Shown in pieces: positions 190 to 40,060 of a stretch of 40,060 nt of DNA (position 1 is its first letter; the number at the start of each line of letters is the position of its first letter). The notes beneath the pieces were generated by a model, which ran no database searches, was not told the DNA's origin, and saw nothing but the letters and a program-made list of their open reading frames with translations. The position numbers and the translations under genes are program-made. Source of the stretch: Escherichia phage IMM-002; the sequence record NC_048071.1. One strand, given 5' to 3'.

Positions 190-210
190 ATCTGTATCGA
201 CCTAATGTCA

Positions 211-305
211 ATCACCTACAGTCAACCAGCCTACAGTCTCACTACCTACAGTCATCTACCATCGGTAAAGCCATCACCTACAGCCAATAGACCTACAGTC
301 ACCAG
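211..305. repeat. Array of about 5 short direct repeats (A)CCTACAG(T/C)C next to the left DTR
   Basis: Copies at about 215, 230, 244, 277 and 292; analogous in position to the short repeats flanking the T7 terminal repeat. Confidence 0.6.
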
Positions 306-519
306 ACACTATGTCGACCTTCAGTTTATCAGAGTCCTAAGGTCTTAGACTCATAGGTTATCACATCCGGTCCGTTTAGCAGTCAGAGACCATAGCTGAC
401 TAGGGTTATCGTTGTTGGTGTCTGCCAACCGGACTCTTATTATCCATAGTACAGACTTAAAGTCAATCATCTGTAGTCGTCCTTATATAGTCACTGTACT
501 ACTGTATAAATTACCAGTG

Positions 520-548
520 TTGACAGTGGGTCTAACTTTTGGTTTAAT
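520..548 (+). promoter_or_regulatory. Candidate host sigma70 early promoter (TTGACA-17 nt-TTTAAT)
   Basis: -35 TTGACA 520..525, 17-nt spacer, -10 TTTAAT 543..548; position matches the T7 A1-A3 region. Confidence 0.55.
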
Positions 549-656: not shown

Positions 657-686
657 TTGACAAGATGTAGCGACTTAACGTAGTAT
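657..686 (+). promoter_or_regulatory. Candidate host sigma70 early promoter (TTGACA-18 nt-TAGTAT)
   Basis: -35 TTGACA 657..662, -10 TAGTAT 681..686; resembles T7 A2/A3 (TTGACA...TAAGAT). Confidence 0.55.
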
Positions 687-886
687 GCACCACATCGACA
701 CGGCACCAACGGTCGATAAGCAGTACCAGAGGCACCGCCTCGCCGCTCTTTAACAATCTGGATAAACTCTTAATGTGCGCCGATAGTAAGCGATTAACTA
801 CAGGGCCTTGAGTCTACCGCGAGACGGGCTTGACTTGAGCGACTCAGGGTCCTGACTGATAGTCACTAACTTAAAGGATACACATC

Positions 887-1339
887 ATGATTTACACTAA
901 CGAACCAGCCAACGTCTTCTATGTGCTCGTGTCTGCCGCTCGTGCTAACCTGTCTGACACGGTGAACATGGGCCGTCAGTTAGGCCTTAAGGCGCTGCTG
1001 CAAGCCGGACCAGAATACTACGGCGTGCTCGAATGCACCGGGCTTACTGGGTGCTACCGCGAGGAAGGGCAGGAAGTCGCCACTGAAGAGAGGACCTACC
1101 GTGTGCGCTGCGAGTCAAAGGCTCAAGCTATCAACGTTGCACGACTGGCCTGCAATGACTTTGAGCAAGACTGCGTGATGGTCTACAAGTCTCAGACTCA
1201 CACGGCTGGACTGATGTTCTGCAAGGGCTGGGACGGCTACAAGACCACAAGTCTGAACGGGTCATTCCAGCAAGTCGATGAACCAAAGGGCGAATGCTTC
1301 ACGAAAGACGCTGAAGGTCGCTTCTGGGAGGTGGTGTAA
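887..1339 (+). CDS. 0.3: S-adenosylmethionine-degrading enzyme (T3 gp0.3 SAMase-like anti-restriction protein)
   Basis: 150 aa, first gene after the early promoters, AAAGGA RBS; N-terminus MIYTNEPANVFYVLVSA and motifs TGLTGCYRE, VRCESKAQAINVARLACN, VYKSQTHTAGL match my recollection of T3 SAMase; not acidic like T7 Ocr. Confidence 0.65.
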   Translation: MIYTNEPANVFYVLVSAARANLSDTVNMGRQLGLKALLQAGPEYYGVLECTGLTGCYREEGQEVATEERTYRVRCESKAQAINVARLACNDFEQDCVMVYKSQTHTAGLMFCKGWDGYKTTSLNGSFQQVDEPKGECFTKDAEGRFWEVV

Positions 1340-1659
1340 TGATTGCCTATAAAATCTTCCGAATCCGCAAGGATGGAACGCTGGGAGCACTATTCATCAA
1401 TCGTAAGGCGGTCATTGAGGTAGGAGAATGGTACGAGGCAGAGAGCCATCCGACCAAAGGGTTTGCCTATCGTCCGGGCTGGCACTGCACCTTTGAGCAG
1501 AACGCGCCACATCTTAAGCTGGACCTGAAGTCAGGTGAGCGTAGGGCTTGGTTTAAGGTAGAGGTTGAGAACATAACGACCTACGACAGGCCAGAATCTC
1601 AGGGTGGTGCATGGGTATTAGCACAGCGTCTGCGGGTATTAGCACAGGTCTCAGAGTGA
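1339..1659 (+). CDS. Hypothetical early protein, translationally coupled to 0.3 (TAATG overlap)
   Basis: 106-aa ORF, GGAGG RBS 7 nt upstream, no recognised motif. Confidence 0.55.
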   Translation: MIAYKIFRIRKDGTLGALFINRKAVIEVGEWYEAESHPTKGFAYRPGWHCTFEQNAPHLKLDLKSGERRAWFKVEVENITTYDRPESQGGAWVLAQRLRVLAQVSE

Positions 1660-2525: not shown

Positions 2526-2720
2526 ATGGGCTGGATACTTCTGGTCATCGGCTACGGGTTAATACTCGCAGTCATCACGAAAGACATCATCAAGGCACGT
2601 AAAGTCTACCGCTTCCAGTATGTGTCTCTGGGTCGCTGGACTGTAAGACAACCAAACGGACGCTTTATGCGTAACCTCGCAAACGTCTGGGACATCGCAA
2701 CCTTAGGGAGCAAACTGTAA
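2526..2720 (+). CDS. Small membrane protein (one N-terminal TM helix), hypothetical
   Basis: ATG 2526 (track ORF opens at GTG 2520); hydrophobic GWILLVIGYGLILAVI then basic tail; TAATG coupling to next gene. Confidence 0.4.
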   Translation: MGWILLVIGYGLILAVITKDIIKARKVYRFQYVSLGRWTVRQPNGRFMRNLANVWDIATLGSKL

Positions 2721-3142
2721 TGTGTAAGACCTGCGCTAAGTGTGGCGAGACCAAGAGTCTTGACCAGTTCGGCAGCAATAAGCGCAACAAGGATGGTCTG
2801 GACTATCGCTGCAAGACTTGCAGAAAGCAGGACGCCCAAGACAGGAGGCAGAAGGCACGAGAGGCCGGGACCTACAAGACGTCAAAGGCTGAAGAGAACC
2901 GAAAGCTGCGCTACGGTCTGGACCTAGAGGAGTACGAGAGCCTCCTACAGCAGCAGGGTGGAGTCTGCGCAATCTGCAAGGGTCAGTGTCCTACCGGGTG
3001 GAGACTGGCGGTGGACCACTCACACGAGACCGGGAAGGTGCGCGGACTGCTCTGCCTACAATGTAATACAGCGCTGGGCCAGTTCAAAGACTCACCGGAA
3101 CTACTGGCAAACGCAATCAAATATCTTCAGGAGAATCAATAA
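2720..3142 (+). CDS. HNH / Endonuclease VII-family nuclease (putative free-standing homing-type endonuclease)
   Basis: 140 aa; N-terminal Cys4 zinc ribbon (CKTCAKCGETK...YRCKTCR) plus GGVCAICKG...LAVDHSHETGKVRGLLCLQCNTALGQF, the Endo VII/HNH signature. Confidence 0.7.
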   Translation: MCKTCAKCGETKSLDQFGSNKRNKDGLDYRCKTCRKQDAQDRRQKAREAGTYKTSKAEENRKLRYGLDLEEYESLLQQQGGVCAICKGQCPTGWRLAVDHSHETGKVRGLLCLQCNTALGQFKDSPELLANAIKYLQENQ

Positions 3143-3398: not shown

Positions 3399-3421
3399 AC
3401 TAAACTATCACTAAAGGACTC
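3399..3421 (+). promoter_or_regulatory. Phage-type promoter variant (TAAACTATCACTAAAGGAC) upstream of the RNAP gene
   Basis: Matches the phage promoter core except A at -2; predicted +1 G at 3416. Confidence 0.5.
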
Positions 3422-7217: not shown

Positions 7218-7466
7218 ATGAGCAGACGTTGGTTATTCGATGCGTCCACGAGCCAGTGGTCCTCGTTAGGCCGGACACACCGCGAGATGGGTGAATCAGG
7301 ACTTGAGGTCCGAATGGATGAGCTGCCTTGCTCCCGGACAACTCTGGTCAGAATCACTGAAGCAGATGGGAAGCCTCTGGTATCCCGCGAGTTTACCGAA
7401 CATGAAATCTTTAGCTGTGAGCAATGGTGCTTGCAGGTGCTGAACGACTATAGGAGCTGGAAATAA
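7218..7466 (+). CDS. 1.2: gp1.2-like protein (T7 gp1.2 inhibits host dGTPase)
   Basis: 82 aa, position between 1.1 and ligase; C-terminal NDYRSWK resembles T7 gp1.2 YDQLKDWK. Confidence 0.55.
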   Translation: MSRRWLFDASTSQWSSLGRTHREMGESGLEVRMDELPCSRTTLVRITEADGKPLVSREFTEHEIFSCEQWCLQVLNDYRSWK

Positions 7467-9383: not shown

Positions 9384-9560
9384 ATGACCATCTATAAGGG
9401 CATCTTCGGGTCTCTGTACGCAGTGAACCAACACGGAGTCGTCTGCGTTAAGCCGGACGGTGGCGAGTGGTGCGCATCACATTACAGTGTCGAGGGATTC
9501 CAAGACGCTATTGATAAAGGCTATGTGACGGAGGTGGTCGATGACCAAGGAGTCAACTGA
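9384..9560 (+). CDS. Hypothetical small protein (gp1.8 position)
   Basis: 58-aa ORF, GGGAGAGG RBS, overlaps gene 2 start. Confidence 0.4.
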
Positions 9561-16546: not shown

Positions 16547-16752
16547 GCGAATACCTGCGGGTCCTTGCGGCCCTCAAGTCCTGCCCGAAGACCTTTCAGT
16601 CCAACTATGTGCGCAACAACGCTGCACTAGTGGCTGAGGCTGCGAGTCGTGGACATCTGAGCTGCCTGTCTATGGACGGGCGTAACAACGGTGCGTGGGA
16701 GATTACCGCTGCTGGCACCAAGTTCCTGAACCAACATGGAGGCTGTCTATGA
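16543..16752 (+). CDS. 5.7: gp5.7-like protein
   Basis: 69 aa; LKSCPKTFQSNYVRNNAALVAEAASRGHLSCL and GAWEITAAGTKFL nearly identical to T7 gp5.7. Confidence 0.85.
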   Translation: MSEYLRVLAALKSCPKTFQSNYVRNNAALVAEAASRGHLSCLSMDGRNNGAWEITAAGTKFLNQHGGCL

Positions 16753-17024
16753 GTCAACAACCTTTGGACTTTCTGGGTCAACCTATCGAAGTTGGCGACA
16801 AGTTCGTCTACGCTGAGGCTGGTGGACGTGGCGGCACAATGGCGCTGCACTCAGGTGTCGTTACCCGCATGACTGAGAAGCAGGTGCTGGTGGAGAAGAC
16901 CCGCTGGGGCCAGACTTGGCGTCCGTTCAACTGCATCGTCATTGTCGAGAAGTGTGGACCAGACGAAGAACCTCTTCTGGGTGCAACCTTAGCTATGGCT
17001 AGAGGAGGTCTCCGGGATGAGTGA
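16749..17024 (+). CDS. Hypothetical protein at the gene 5.9 position
   Basis: 91 aa from ATG 16749 (ATGA coupling, GGAGG RBS); not acidic, no similarity to T7 gp5.9 as recalled. Confidence 0.5.
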   Translation: MSQQPLDFLGQPIEVGDKFVYAEAGGRGGTMALHSGVVTRMTEKQVLVEKTRWGQTWRPFNCIVIVEKCGPDEEPLLGATLAMARGGLRDE

Positions 17025-17883: not shown

Positions 17884-18006
17884 TCTACTGGGCCGGACTT
17901 CTGGCCCTTTACGCGATGTACGCAATCAGTGGGTCTAACCGACCGAAGCACTGAGTCTAACCGATAGTCATAACCTATCGTTCTACTGGCCATCTATAGG
18001 TGAAAC

Positions 18007-18029
18007 ACTAAACTATCACTATAGGGACT
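18007..18029 (+). promoter_or_regulatory. Phage RNAP promoter (phi6.5-equivalent)
   Basis: CTAAACTATCACTATAGGGAC, +1 about 18024. Confidence 0.85.
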
Positions 18030-18091
18030 TTAGGACCTAAGTTATGACTATAAGATAGACTTAAGTTAATACTTTAAGAGGAGACTTTAAG

Positions 18092-33591: not shown

Positions 33592-36390
33592 ATGGCTAAA
33601 ACAACTATCACTCAGTTCCCTGCTGGTCAATCGCAGTATCGAATTGAGTTCGACTATCTGGCTCGACCTTTCGTCGTCGTAACGTTGGTGAACTCCGCCG
33701 ACCAGACGCAGAACAGGGTGCTGAGGGCTGGAGCTGACTATAGGTTCCTGAACCCCACCTTAATCGAGGTTATGATTCCACAGACAGGTTTCGATACCTT
33801 GCAAATTCACCGTCAGACGGACACCGAGCTGATTGTTGGTTTCAGGGACGGCTCAGTTCTTACAGCTAAGGACTTGACAAATGCAGAGCTTCAGGCCATT
33901 CACATCTCGGAAGAGGGTAGGGACCAGACTGTAGACTTAGCGAAGGAATACGCTGACGCTGCCGCCAAAGCGCGAAACGATGCCGAAGACGCCCGTGATA
34001 GCATCGAGCAGGTCATGAAGTCTGGACTGTACGGATACACTCTGGTTGAGGACTTCCAAAAAGGTGCCACATTGTCTCACCCGGCTGAGGCACTTCGCTG
34101 GACACTGCCTGATGGGACGGGAGAATACTACCGCTGGGACGGTGTGTTTCCAAAGGTGGTTCCAGCAGGGTCAACGCCCACATCAGCTGGAGGGGTCGGA
34201 GTTGGTGCTTGGGTATCTATTGGTGACGCATCTCTTCGAGGAAACCTAGCTAACCCAGCCTACGGTGACGGCCTTGTTGCTTCGCAGCTTCCTAACTCCC
34301 CGGTGGCTAGAACAGTCCATGATAAAATGCTAGAAGCTGTGAGCATTGCGGACTATATGGTTGGCGGTGATGTGGCTGGTGCGATAATTGGTGCCCTGTC
34401 CTCCACTGCTGGTCGGGTTAGTGTTCCTGCCGGGAATCACATAGCCACACCTTCCGCAGCGCAAGTGGCTGGCGTACTCTCTGCCCTAAGTAGGCTGAAC
34501 ATTAACGGGTCCTTAACGATTCGTCTCCCTAAGGGAAGGGTTAATCTATCCTCTCCGGTATTGGTGGAGCTGGACGGAGGGAATAACCTAAGCATTGAAG
34601 GACAGCCTAACGTCCCAGTAACCATTACAGGACAAGCGTCTGTCTCTGGGTCTGCTGGAAACTACCAAGTAACCCTTAACGTGTCCTCGACAGCCGGGGT
34701 CTCTGTGGGTGACTTCCTGCATACCAACCAAGCTACAGGCACAGGAGCATGCGACCTTCATCGCGGTGTTTGGGAGATTACCGCTGTTGGGGCAGGGTCT
34801 CTGACTGTCAGGAATACGTGCCAGCTCTCATCCTTCCCGGCTAACACCATAACCTCCAGCTCTAGCCGAGTGCTGACCTCAGTGCTCATGTTTGACCGCT
34901 GCGATGGGTTCATAGTGCCGTCCTCTGAAGTTGGTAACATGAGTAACTTTGTTATCGCAGGTAACTCAGACTCATACTGGAGGGCCTCGGCTGTGGGGAC
35001 TACCGAGCTGGGGACTCATGGTCTGGCTGTAGGCTCAAACACTGTAGCCGTGAACGGTAAGTCAGATAACGTTAACCCTCAAGGTAAGACGGGCGGTAGC
35101 GTGACTTTCGGTCAATACATGGGCGTCTCCGGGTTTGACCAGCAGGGCATTGTTACCGAGCTTGGTGGTAGCTTCTGGGGCGACTTTACTTGCTGCTGTA
35201 ACAACAAGAGACGCGGGTTCTACTCGTCAACTGCATCTGGCATTCGTGCTAAGCAGATTACGGCCAATGGTAACTATCTTGATGGGGTTATTGCGGATAT
35301 TGGCGGAGACATCTACTCGAGCTCTTCTAGCTGCGCCGCAGGTAACGGGTCCTCAGGCATAAGCGCTGCCCATAACGGTTCTGTGATATGGGACGCAGGC
35401 AAGGCCAGCTACAATAAGCTGAATGGTGCCAATGGGGTGGCGGGGGGCTTCCTACAGATGACTGGCTCAACGATGCAGGGTAACTTGGCCACTGGCGCTA
35501 ACCTAGCCTATGGTGCCATCCTCTACTGCGACAACTCCCAGATATCTTTAAACGGAACCTATGGCATTAACTGTCAGCTGGGCTCGGTTGTTCGTGGTCC
35601 TAACTGCACGTATATAGGGAATAACAACCAAGGCATTAGAGGCTCTTACAATGCGACCGTAACCTTTACAGGCTCTACATTCTCTGGTAACTCTGGCGGG
35701 GACTTCCTCTTTACCGCTATGTCTCTTGGCATCTTCGGGAACACTAATTACGGTGGGGATATTGTTGCCACGGACATTAAGTTAGTGAACCAGTCAACTG
35801 GCAAAGGTGTCCGTCTTACTGGGACCTCTGGTGGGGATAACATTGTTATGTCCTATGATGTCACGGGTAATGGGTCCTTTGTCGAGGGTTATAACTTCAG
35901 GTCTGGTGACGTTGGTATCTACCCATCGGATGATGCGGTTCGCAATATTGGACGACCAGCAAACAGGTTTAACATCGGCTTCTTTGCGGGAGGAACACAG
36001 TCTACGTCAGACGCTAGGCTTAAGGACCCTATCAGGGACTTTTCTGAGGCAGAACTCAAGGCGGCTGTCGCCTGTAGTAAATCCTTAGGATTCTGGACTT
36101 GGCTGGACGACGACAGCAAGCGCCTTCATGCAGGGACTACTGTTCAAAGAGTTCTAGAAATCCTAGAGGATAACGGGCTGGATTGGCGTGAGTATGGGTT
36201 CATCGGGTTTGACTCGTGGGAAGATGAGTATAAACCTGTCGTTGCGGAGATTGATGGTATGGAATACGAGACTGGCGAGGTTGTCAAGGTGGTTGAGGCA
36301 GGGTCACTGTGGCAGCTGCGTGACCAAGAGTTTGACAGATTCCTAATCCGTGGACTCTCCGCCCGACTCTCGGCTATCGAGAAGGACTGA
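33592..36390 (+). CDS. 17: Tail fibre / tailspike: T7 gp17-like N-terminal adaptor, Gly/Asn/Ser-rich beta-helix-like central domain, C-terminal intramolecular chaperone (peptidase S74-type) domain
   Basis: 932 aa; N-terminal about 150 aa resemble T7 gp17 ([33 protein letters not shown]); C-terminal [14 protein letters not shown]... fits the SDxRxK autoproteolytic chaperone motif of endosialidase-type fibres; codon usage distinct from rest of genome. Confidence 0.9.
36007..36387 (+). other. Predicted intramolecular chaperone / autoproteolysis domain within the tail fibre (cleavage expected at Ser806)
   Basis: SDARLKDPI motif beginning at codon 806 of the fibre ORF. Confidence 0.6.
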
Positions 36391-39871: not shown

Positions 39872-40060
39872 TCTCACAGTTCAAGAACCTCAAGTCTCCC
39901 CATAGGGTCACTCTCAGTCCGACTCAAGGCCCTACCCATAGACCTTCGGTCTAAACCTCAAGTCATTGACCCGAAGTCGCCCCGAAGTCTGGACTGATAG
40001 TGCCTATATCTTGTGGTTGGGACGATTGGTCGGGACTATATGTAGTGCCTCTGAGTCTCT
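39872..40060. repeat. Right direct terminal repeat (DTR)
   Basis: Identical to 1..189; window ends inside or at the end of the repeat. Confidence 0.9.

What the first reader, a model, noticed from the sequence alone, without database searches (positions are those of the whole stretch)
887..1339. T3-type SAMase instead of an Ocr DNA mimic at the 0.3 position
The first early gene encodes a 150-aa non-acidic protein whose motifs match my recollection of T3 gp0.3, which depletes S-adenosylmethionine, rather than the acidic T7 Ocr. This points to the anti-restriction strategy, and the promoter set is still unlike T3, so the genome is mosaic.
Basis: partly seen in the sequence, partly recalled or inferred. 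Interest (0 to 1): 0.35.

Follow-up and report, generated by a model that had tools for sequence, protein, structure and literature searches.

The report
Known T3-type SAM lyase gene
The first gene of this T7-like phage (Escherichia phage IMM-002) encodes a clear relative of the phage T3 enzyme that destroys the host's S-adenosylmethionine to evade restriction; it is already annotated in public records and is ordinary for this phage genus.

Summary
The ORF at 887-1339 (+, 150 aa) is real. It is a full-length homologue of T3 gp0.3: Pfam S-AdoMet_lyase E 7e-40, and solved T3 structure 7OCK/8BB1 E 3e-56 at 63% identity. The tested active-site residues (E68, Q94, D95) and the strictly conserved MetK-contact residues (T4, Q103, T104, H105) are all retained. 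No Ocr homologue exists in the window.

The exact protein is already deposited as gp0.3 of Escherichia phage IMM-002, whose genome is 40,060 bp like the window. GenBank calls it "S-adenosyl-L-methionine hydrolase".

Two corrections:
- The enzyme family is now known to be a lyase that also inhibits host MetK, not a hydrolase.
- The protein is mildly acidic (pI 4.95), not "non-acidic".

The promoters are indeed unlike T3 (CTAAACTATCACTATAGG, K1F type). That does not make the gene a T3 import. It is 63% identical to T3's, the same as the RNA polymerase, and 91-95% identical in about 25 related phages.

The 0.3 slot does vary within Kayfunavirus:
- K1F and EcoDS1 carry Ocr.
- IME278 carries both Ocr and this SAM lyase.
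- Pisces, the closest genome, carries a SAM lyase only 35% identical.

Verdict: already known, low interest.

The parts
887..1339 (+). Gene 0.3: a 150-aa T3-type S-adenosylmethionine lyase (SAMase), stop codon included
   Evidence: ORF list. Pfam PF23780, E 6.9e-40. PDB 7OCK/8BB1, E 3.2e-56. PHROG 2226, E 1.5e-46. Exact match to IMM-002 ATI16962.1 / YP_009812831.1.
874..878 (+). Shine-Dalgarno AAGGA, 8 nt upstream of the ATG
   Evidence: Read directly from the sequence. Identical in Pisces, where the record annotates an RBS.
801..854 (+). Stable hairpin in the leader, in the position of T3's RNase III site R0.3
   Evidence: RNA fold gives -31 kcal/mol, z -3.3 against shuffles. T3 annotates R0.3 at 822-875, just upstream of its gene 0.3 at 901. 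The sequence is identical in Pisces. RNase III cleavage itself is inferred by analogy and was not tested.
657..686 (+). Host sigma-70-type early promoter (TTGACA, 18 nt, TAGTAT)
   Evidence: Consensus scan, 10 of 12 matches. Aligns with the second host RNAP promoter annotated in EcoDS1, 609-647.
519..547 (+). Host sigma-70-type early promoter (TTGACA, 17 nt, TTTAAT)
   Evidence: Aligns with the first host RNAP promoter annotated in EcoDS1, 469-505. The scan tool did not call it because position 2 of the -10 hexamer is T.
968..970 (+). In-frame ATG (Met28) matching T3's annotated internal start of gene 0.3B
   Evidence: T3 record: CDS 982-1359, 'in-frame internal initiation'. Window context is ACGGTGAACATG; T3's is GAGGTGAATATG. 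Use of this start in this phage is speculative.
1339..1659 (+). Downstream 106-aa gene of unknown function; its ATG overlaps the last base of the 0.3 stop codon (TAATG)
   Evidence: PHROG 12224, unknown function. No Pfam or NCBIfam match. It marks the right boundary of the exchanged 0.3 cassette.

Best explanation
Gene 0.3 of this Kayfunavirus (Escherichia phage IMM-002) encodes a T3-type SAM lyase that acts as an early anti-defence protein. It sits at the left end of the genome, which enters the cell first. Host RNA polymerase most likely transcribes it from two sigma-70 promoters (about 519-547 and 657-686), and the transcript is probably processed at an RNase III-type hairpin (801-854). By homology with T3 gp0.3, the 16.8-kDa product cleaves S-adenosylmethionine into 5'-methylthioadenosine and homoserine lactone. 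It also binds the host SAM synthetase MetK through its N-terminal tail and its beta4-beta5 loop, which blocks resynthesis of SAM. The resulting lack of SAM disables SAM-dependent defences (type I restriction-modification, BREX) before the rest of the genome is exposed. Shown here: homology, conservation of the functional residues, gene position and regulatory context. Inferred: the enzymatic activity, MetK binding and the anti-defence phenotype.
For: There is a full-length, nearly gapless alignment to the solved T3 SAM lyase (E 3.2e-56; 62.7% identity), and Pfam S-AdoMet_lyase scores five times its cut-off. The residues mutated in T3 to reduce or abolish activity (E68, Q94, D95) are identical here. 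So are G55 and Y57, the T3 equivalents by position of Svi3-3 Gly56 and Tyr58 (PMC7877911; 10.1101/2023.02.27.530186, read). Of the MetK-contact residues, M1, I2, T4, A8, N9, Q103, T104 and T106 are identical, as is H105, which contacts the N-terminal tail. That set includes the four reported as strictly conserved: T4, Q103, T104 and H105. The gene is the first one, preceded by promoters that align with EcoDS1's annotated host promoters, and no phage promoter occurs before about position 3400. A stable leader hairpin sits where T3 has R0.3. No Ocr is present as an alternative.
Against: There is no biochemical or genetic data for this protein, and the IMM-002 paper does not mention it. Two MetK-tail residues differ from T3 (F3Y, K5N). 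In T3, E68Q alone leaves 20-30% activity, so conservation of single residues is soft evidence for activity. The promoter and RNase III assignments rest on consensus matches, alignment and analogy only.
Confidence: 0.9

Rival explanations
1. The gene was acquired recently from a T3-like (Teetrevirus) phage by a genome of another type.
For: The gene family was first described in T3. The promoters and RNA polymerase are of the K1F type, not the T3 type. The 0.3 slot is demonstrably exchangeable within the genus.
Against: Identity to T3 gp0.3 is 63%, the same as the RNA polymerase (63%) and within the range of all shared genes (32-75%). A recent transfer would stand out as much more similar than the backbone. 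The same allele is 91-95% identical in about 25 Kayfunavirus-like phages such as GW1, SFPH2 and IME278, whose backbones are 85-89% nucleotide-identical to the window. Homologues occur in 495 phage records of many genera.
Confidence: 0.04
2. The protein works mainly or only as a stoichiometric MetK inhibitor and anti-restriction factor, and SAM cleavage is dispensable or lost.
For: In T3, the catalytically dead E68Q/Q94A mutant keeps partial anti-BREX activity through MetK binding, and an old T3 mutant without SAMase activity kept its anti-restriction activity. The MetK-contact residues are conserved here.
Against: All the mutagenised active-site residues are also conserved, which argues that catalysis is retained. 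In T3 both activities contribute.
Confidence: 0.05
3. The protein is a SAM-dependent methyltransferase, as RefSeq records and PHROG 2226 name it.
For: Database names only: PHROG 2226 'SAM-dependent methyltransferase' and the RefSeq product names of many homologues, including T3's own gp0.3.
Against: T3 gp0.3, which carries the same RefSeq name, is experimentally a SAM lyase with a solved structure. The only Pfam match is S-AdoMet_lyase, with no methyltransferase domain. The name is an annotation error that has spread between records.
Confidence: 0.01
4. The protein targets a SAM-derived defence signal (SAM-AMP from type III CRISPR) rather than SAM itself, and so acts as an anti-CRISPR.
For: [quoted passage not shown]
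Against: Those enzymes were compared with Svi3-3 rather than with T3. This protein is 63% identical to T3 gp0.3, which has demonstrated SAM lyase activity. From general knowledge, not tested here: SAM-AMP/CorA systems are not typical of E. coli.
Confidence: 0.02

Closest known systems
Bacteriophage T3 gp0.3 SAM lyase (SAMase; PDB 7OCK, 8BB1; Pfam PF23780)
   Same: Same length class (150 vs 152 aa) and the same first-gene position behind host promoters and an RNase III-type hairpin. Identity is 63% over the full length. E67/E68, Q94/D95, G55, Y57, T4, Q103-T106 and the Met28 internal start position are all identical.
   Different: Net charge differs (pI 4.95 vs 8.2). F3Y and K5N substitutions lie in the MetK-binding tail, and there is a 2-residue shorter C-terminal region. 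The gene sits in a Kayfunavirus with K1F-type RNA polymerase and promoters. The Shine-Dalgarno sequence before Met28 is weaker.
gp0.3 of other Kayfunavirus-like phages (Cronobacter GW1, Shigella SFPH2/SFP21B, Enterobacter IME278, Klebsiella phi1_146013)
   Same: The same allele at 91-95% amino-acid identity, with the same leader and position.
   Different: Most of these phages carry a different gene directly downstream. Only vB_EclP_26 matches the whole 745-1700 probe. IME278 additionally carries a true Ocr.
Escherichia phage Pisces gp0.3 (the closest whole genome)
   Same: Also a SAM lyase family member in the same slot. The leader and first 13 or so codons are nearly identical, and so is the downstream gene.
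   Different: Only 35% amino-acid identity across the body of the protein, although the backbone is 93-100% identical. Met28 is absent. The Pisces allele is rare: only Pisces and MBBL139 have it, and the next best hits are at 58%.
T7 Ocr / K1F and EcoDS1 gp0.3 (DNA mimic, Pfam PF08684)
   Same: Same genomic slot and the same biological purpose, early neutralisation of type I R-M and BREX. Ocr occurs in members of the same genus.
   Different: Unrelated in sequence and mechanism. Ocr is a highly acidic DNA mimic (net -28 to -37) that binds the restriction enzyme. The window protein is an enzyme with net charge -5.5 and has no detectable similarity to Ocr.

Membership tests
T3-type S-adenosylmethionine lyase (Pfam PF23780, S-AdoMet_lyase) | Sequence match to the family profile above the curated threshold | tested here: met
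   136.5 bits against a cut-off of 28, E 6.9e-40, covering profile positions 1-132 of 133.
T3-type S-adenosylmethionine lyase (Pfam PF23780, S-AdoMet_lyase) | Full-length homology to the experimentally characterised and structurally solved T3 gp0.3 | tested here: met
   PDB 7OCK/8BB1: E 3.2e-56, residues 1-149 aligned to 1-151. 62.7% identity.
T3-type S-adenosylmethionine lyase (Pfam PF23780, S-AdoMet_lyase) | Active-site residues shown by mutagenesis to matter (T3 E68, Q94, D95; equivalents of Svi3-3 Gly56, Tyr58, Glu69, Gln104) | tested here: met
   E68, Q94, D95, G55 and Y57 are identical and at the same positions. Their roles are taken from PMC7877911 and 10.1101/2023.02.27.530186. The pairing of G55 and Y57 with Svi3-3 Gly56 and Tyr58 is my assignment by position.
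T3-type S-adenosylmethionine lyase (Pfam PF23780, S-AdoMet_lyase) | [quoted passage not shown] | tested here: met
   M1, I2, T4, A8, N9, Q103, T104, H105 and T106 are identical. F3Y and K5N differ. Actual binding was not tested.
T3-type S-adenosylmethionine lyase (Pfam PF23780, S-AdoMet_lyase) | Three-dimensional fold (the beta-barrel with two outer helices reported for T3 gp0.3) | not tested
   No model was built. 63% identity over the full length to a solved structure makes a shared fold a safe inference, but it remains an inference.
T3-type S-adenosylmethionine lyase (Pfam PF23780, S-AdoMet_lyase) | Enzymatic conversion of SAM to MTA plus homoserine lactone, and an anti-restriction / anti-BREX phenotype | not testable with these tools
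   Requires biochemistry and phage genetics.
T3-type S-adenosylmethionine lyase (Pfam PF23780, S-AdoMet_lyase) | Class I early gene: first gene at the left end, transcribed by host RNA polymerase | tested here: met
   It is the first conserved ORF. Two sigma-70-type promoters align with EcoDS1's annotated host promoters, and the first phage promoter is at about 3400. Promoter activity itself is inferred.
Ocr DNA mimic (Pfam PF08684) | Sequence match to Ocr and an extreme acidic composition | tested here: not met
   No Pfam ocr hit for the window protein. tblastn of T7 and K1F Ocr against the whole window gives a best E of 0.65. Net charge is -5.5 against -28 and -37.
Genus Kayfunavirus (for the genome as a whole) | Nucleotide similarity and shared RNA polymerase / promoter type with K1F-like phages | tested here: met
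   93.7% nucleotide identity over 89% of the first 25 kb to Pisces, which is classified as Kayfunavirus in its record. RNAP is 94% identical to K1F's. The promoter consensus is shared with K1F and Pisces. The exact gp0.3 protein belongs to IMM-002.

The most novel reading that the evidence does not exclude
The 0.3 position of Kayfunaviruses may be a selected, hot-swappable anti-defence slot rather than a neutrally drifting gene. The window and its closest relative Pisces differ by a clean replacement of the SAM lyase body: 35% amino-acid identity inside a 93-100% identical backbone. The crossovers lie just after the first 13 or so codons, which encode the MetK-binding tail, and exactly at the next gene's start codon. 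Other members of the genus carry Ocr, or both Ocr and a SAM lyase. If hosts have counter-measures that recognise particular SAM lyase alleles, or if MetK variants differ between hosts, the allele would be a host-range determinant.
Probability: 0.2. Interest if true: 0.35.

Novelty: already known. Interest (0 to 1): 0.08.

Why it matters
It matters little beyond correct annotation. The protein tells us this ETEC-targeting phage relies on SAM depletion rather than DNA mimicry to evade type I restriction and BREX. That is useful when choosing or engineering therapeutic phages for particular hosts. The check also shows that the RefSeq/PHROG label "SAM-dependent methyltransferase" for this family is wrong. 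Finally, it shows that the T3-versus-T7 choice of anti-restriction gene recurs as a polymorphism within a single genus.

Tried and rejected
1. Searched for an Ocr homologue elsewhere in the window, using tblastn with T7 Ocr and K1F Ocr. Nothing was found.

2. Searched the window for T3-type promoters at up to 3 mismatches. None were found.

3. NCBIfam scan of gp0.3 and of the downstream 106-aa protein. No model matches either.

4. Considered recent transfer from T3. Rejected, because gp0.3 is no more similar to T3's than the core genes are.

5. Considered the RefSeq/PHROG name 'SAM-dependent methyltransferase'. Rejected as a propagated misnomer.

6. Considered a SAM-AMP lyase / anti-CRISPR role. 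It could not be excluded, but nothing supports it.

7. No structure model was built and no large protein-database searches were run. With 63% full-length identity to a solved structure and an exact database match, they could not change the verdict.

8. The first Python attempt and one paper query failed for technical reasons and were repeated.

Full report
**Observation.** An AAGGA Shine-Dalgarno sequence lies 8 nt upstream. The window is a complete T7-like genome. It has 189-bp direct terminal repeats (1-189 = 39872-40060) and 13 copies of a phage promoter with the core CTAAACTATCACTATAGG.

**Identity of the protein.**
- Pfam gives a single strong match, PF23780 S-AdoMet_lyase: 136.5 bits against a cut-off of 28, E 6.9e-40, covering nearly the whole profile.
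- Among solved structures, the only real hit is the T3 protein in entries 7OCK and 8BB1: E 3.2e-56, residues 1-149 aligned to 1-151 with a single 2-residue gap.
- BLASTP identity to T3 gp0.3 is 62.7%.
- PHROG 2226 also matches, E 1.5e-46.
- tblastn finds homologues in 495 phage records, the best at 94.7% identity.

**The sequence is already known.** An exact look-up finds this sequence as ATI16962.1 / YP_009812831.1 of Escherichia phage IMM-002. It lies on a contig of 40,060 bp, the length of the window. GenBank names it S-adenosyl-L-methionine hydrolase. The paper describing IMM-002 is PMC6301781. It reports a T7-like phage of CS3-expressing ETEC with 189-bp terminal repeats, related to K1F and EcoDS1 and sharing their promoter consensus. 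It does not mention the SAMase or restriction at all.

**Functional residues.** The alignment with T3 has no gaps through residue ~130, so positions map one to one.
- T3 E68, Q94 and D95 were mutated to reduce or abolish SAM cleavage (E68Q and Q94A each five-fold down; E68Q/Q94A inactive). All three are identical here.
- G55 and Y57 are also identical. By position they correspond to Svi3-3 Gly56 and Tyr58.
- In the 2.8 Å T3 SAMase-MetK complex, the contacts involve M1, I2, F3, T4, K5, A8 and N9 of the N-terminal tail, and Q103, T104 and T106 of the beta4-beta5 loop. T4, Q103, T104 and H105 are reported as strictly conserved.
- Here M1, I2, T4, A8, N9, Q103, T104, H105 and T106 are identical. 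Only F3Y and K5N differ.

**Mechanism.** By homology, the protein most likely does what T3 gp0.3 does.
- It cleaves SAM to MTA and homoserine lactone. The family is a lyase, not the hydrolase of older annotation (PMC7877911).
- It binds and inhibits host MetK (PMC8406200; 10.1101/2023.02.27.530186).
- The cell is thereby starved of the cofactor that type I R-M and BREX need.

This is inference. No experiment exists for this protein.

**Regulatory context.**
- The gene is the first conserved ORF at the left end.
- A sigma-70-type promoter at 657-686 (TTGACA, 18 nt, TAGTAT) was found by the scan.
- A second one at about 519-547 (TTGACA, 17 nt, TTTAAT) was not called by the scan. Both align with the first two host RNAP promoters annotated in EcoDS1.
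- EcoDS1's third host promoter lies in a segment absent from both the window and Pisces.
- A stable hairpin at 801-854 (-31 kcal/mol, z -3.3) occupies the place of T3's RNase III site R0.3.
- The first phage promoter is at about 3400, upstream of the RNA polymerase gene. Gene 0.3 is therefore a host-transcribed class I gene.

**Charge.** The protein has pI 4.95 and net charge about -5.5, while T3's is basic (pI 8.2). Both are far from Ocr: T7 net -28, K1F net -37. No Ocr homologue is detectable anywhere in the window.

**The 'mosaic' inference.** The promoters are indeed unlike T3's. The T3 consensus has no match at up to 3 mismatches. The window consensus occurs 7 times in Pisces and 8 times in K1F, but not in T3.

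Everything else is also unlike T3, however. In a gene-by-gene tblastn comparison:

| Gene | Identity to T3 | Identity to K1F | Identity to Pisces |
|---|---|---|---|
| RNA polymerase | 63% | 94% | 100% |
| Primase-helicase | 64% | 91% | 99% |
| Connector | 67% | 95% | 100% |
| Capsid | 72% | 94% | 97% |
| Terminase | 65% | 93% | 100% |
| gp0.3 | 63% | no homologue (K1F has Ocr) | 35% |

- Across all genes shared with T3, identity ranges from 32% to 75%. gp0.3 at 63% sits inside that spread.
- The same allele is 91-95% identical in about 25 Kayfunavirus-like phages, including GW1, SFPH2, IME278 and phi1_146013.
- The backbones of these phages are 85-89% nucleotide-identical to the window.

There is thus no sign of a T3-derived insertion. 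The SAM lyase is a normal occupant of this slot in the genus.

**What is mosaic.** The slot itself varies within Kayfunavirus.
- K1F and EcoDS1 carry a true Ocr (PF08684) as their first gene. Ocr is common across the genus.
- IME278 carries the window's SAM lyase allele and also a true Ocr two genes downstream, 62% identical to T7 Ocr. 'Instead of' is therefore not a strict rule.
- Pisces, the closest whole genome (93.7% identity over 89% of the first 25 kb), has a SAM lyase only 35% identical.

The window/Pisces alignment shows near-identity from about window 745 through the leader and the first 13 or so codons. It then diverges across the body of the gene. Identity resumes exactly at the ATG of the next gene at 1339. 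This is a clean cassette replacement.

The Pisces allele is rare. Only Pisces and one other record have it, and the next best hits are at 58%. Pisces is therefore more likely the lineage that was replaced.

Conversely, most phages sharing the window's 0.3 allele lack its downstream gene 1339-1659, which Pisces has. So the small early genes assort independently.

**Verdict.** The main interpretation (a T3-type SAMase, no Ocr) is right, and only its mechanism needs updating. The 'mosaic' deduction does not follow from the evidence given, although gene-sized exchange in the early region is real. The feature is already deposited, named and well understood through T3. It is ordinary and scores low.

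Noticed in passing
window 1339-1659 (+): A 106-aa gene of unknown function (PHROG 12224; no Pfam or NCBIfam match). Its ATG overlaps the last base of the gp0.3 stop codon (TAATG). It is 97% identical in Pisces and is also present in vB_EclP_26. Most phages with the same 0.3 allele have other genes here, and IME278 has an Ocr two genes downstream of 0.3. It is a candidate for a further early anti-host or anti-defence gene.
   Followed up: partly
window 2720-3142 (+): A 140-aa Endonuclease VII family ORF (PF02945, E 1.7e-25; PHROG 2633). It sits between two genes that are adjacent in Pisces and has no counterpart in Pisces, K1F or T3. It looks like a free-standing homing-type endonuclease insertion.
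   Followed up: partly
window 7218-7466 (+): An 82-aa dGTPase-inhibitor-family protein (PHROG 6515, E 1e-34). It gives no tblastn hit in Pisces, although Pisces annotates its own dGTPase inhibitor at the same place. This is a second allele replacement between otherwise near-identical genomes. ORFs 9384-9560 and 16749-17024 also lack counterparts in Pisces, K1F and T3.
   Followed up: partly
window 33592-36390 (+): In the tail spike (932 aa), only the N-terminal ~24% is shared with Pisces and K1F. Pfam shows the T7 tail N-terminal domain, Tail_spike_N, a beta-helix and a Peptidase_S74 chaperone domain. The receptor-binding part is therefore exchanged, which fits the unusual host specificity (CS3-expressing ETEC) reported for IMM-002.
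   Followed up: partly
database records of homologues: RefSeq records and PHROG 2226 name this family 'SAM-dependent methyltransferase', including T3's own gp0.3. That is a propagated misannotation of an enzyme that destroys SAM. NCBIfam has no model for it.
   Followed up: yes
L006 (Enterobacter phage IME278) 139-591 and 953-1288: A Kayfunavirus that carries both the window-type SAM lyase and a genuine Ocr (PF08684, E 1.7e-31). It combines two anti-restriction strategies in one early region.
   Followed up: partly
window 968-970 (Met28 of gp0.3): The in-frame ATG corresponding to T3's annotated internal start (gene 0.3B) is conserved, but its Shine-Dalgarno sequence is weaker (ACGGTGA against T3's GAGGTGA). 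The Pisces allele has no Met there.
   Followed up: partly
window 18003-18031 and 18032-18060: Two phage-promoter-like sequences lie 29 nt apart. The second is degenerate (CTAAGTTATGACTATAAG).
   Followed up: no
window 205-300: A cluster of short direct repeats (ACCTACAGTC-type units) just inside the left terminal repeat. From general knowledge of T7-like phages, it resembles the repeat arrays near their concatemer junctions.
   Followed up: no
window about 690-745 compared with L005 (EcoDS1) about 650-850: The segment holding EcoDS1's third annotated host promoter is absent from the window and from Pisces. These phages therefore appear to have two early host promoters rather than three.
   Followed up: partly
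records MT350292.1, PQ520054.1, OR786095.1: Genomes labelled 'Enterococcus phage EFA-1', 'Enterococcus phage IME_EF3' and 'Staphylococcus phage MBBL139' match this enterobacterial Kayfunavirus closely. EFA-1 and IME_EF3 share its gp0.3 allele at 93-94% amino-acid identity, and MBBL139 is 87.5% nucleotide-identical over 87% of the first 25 kb. Their host labels are probably wrong.
   Followed up: no
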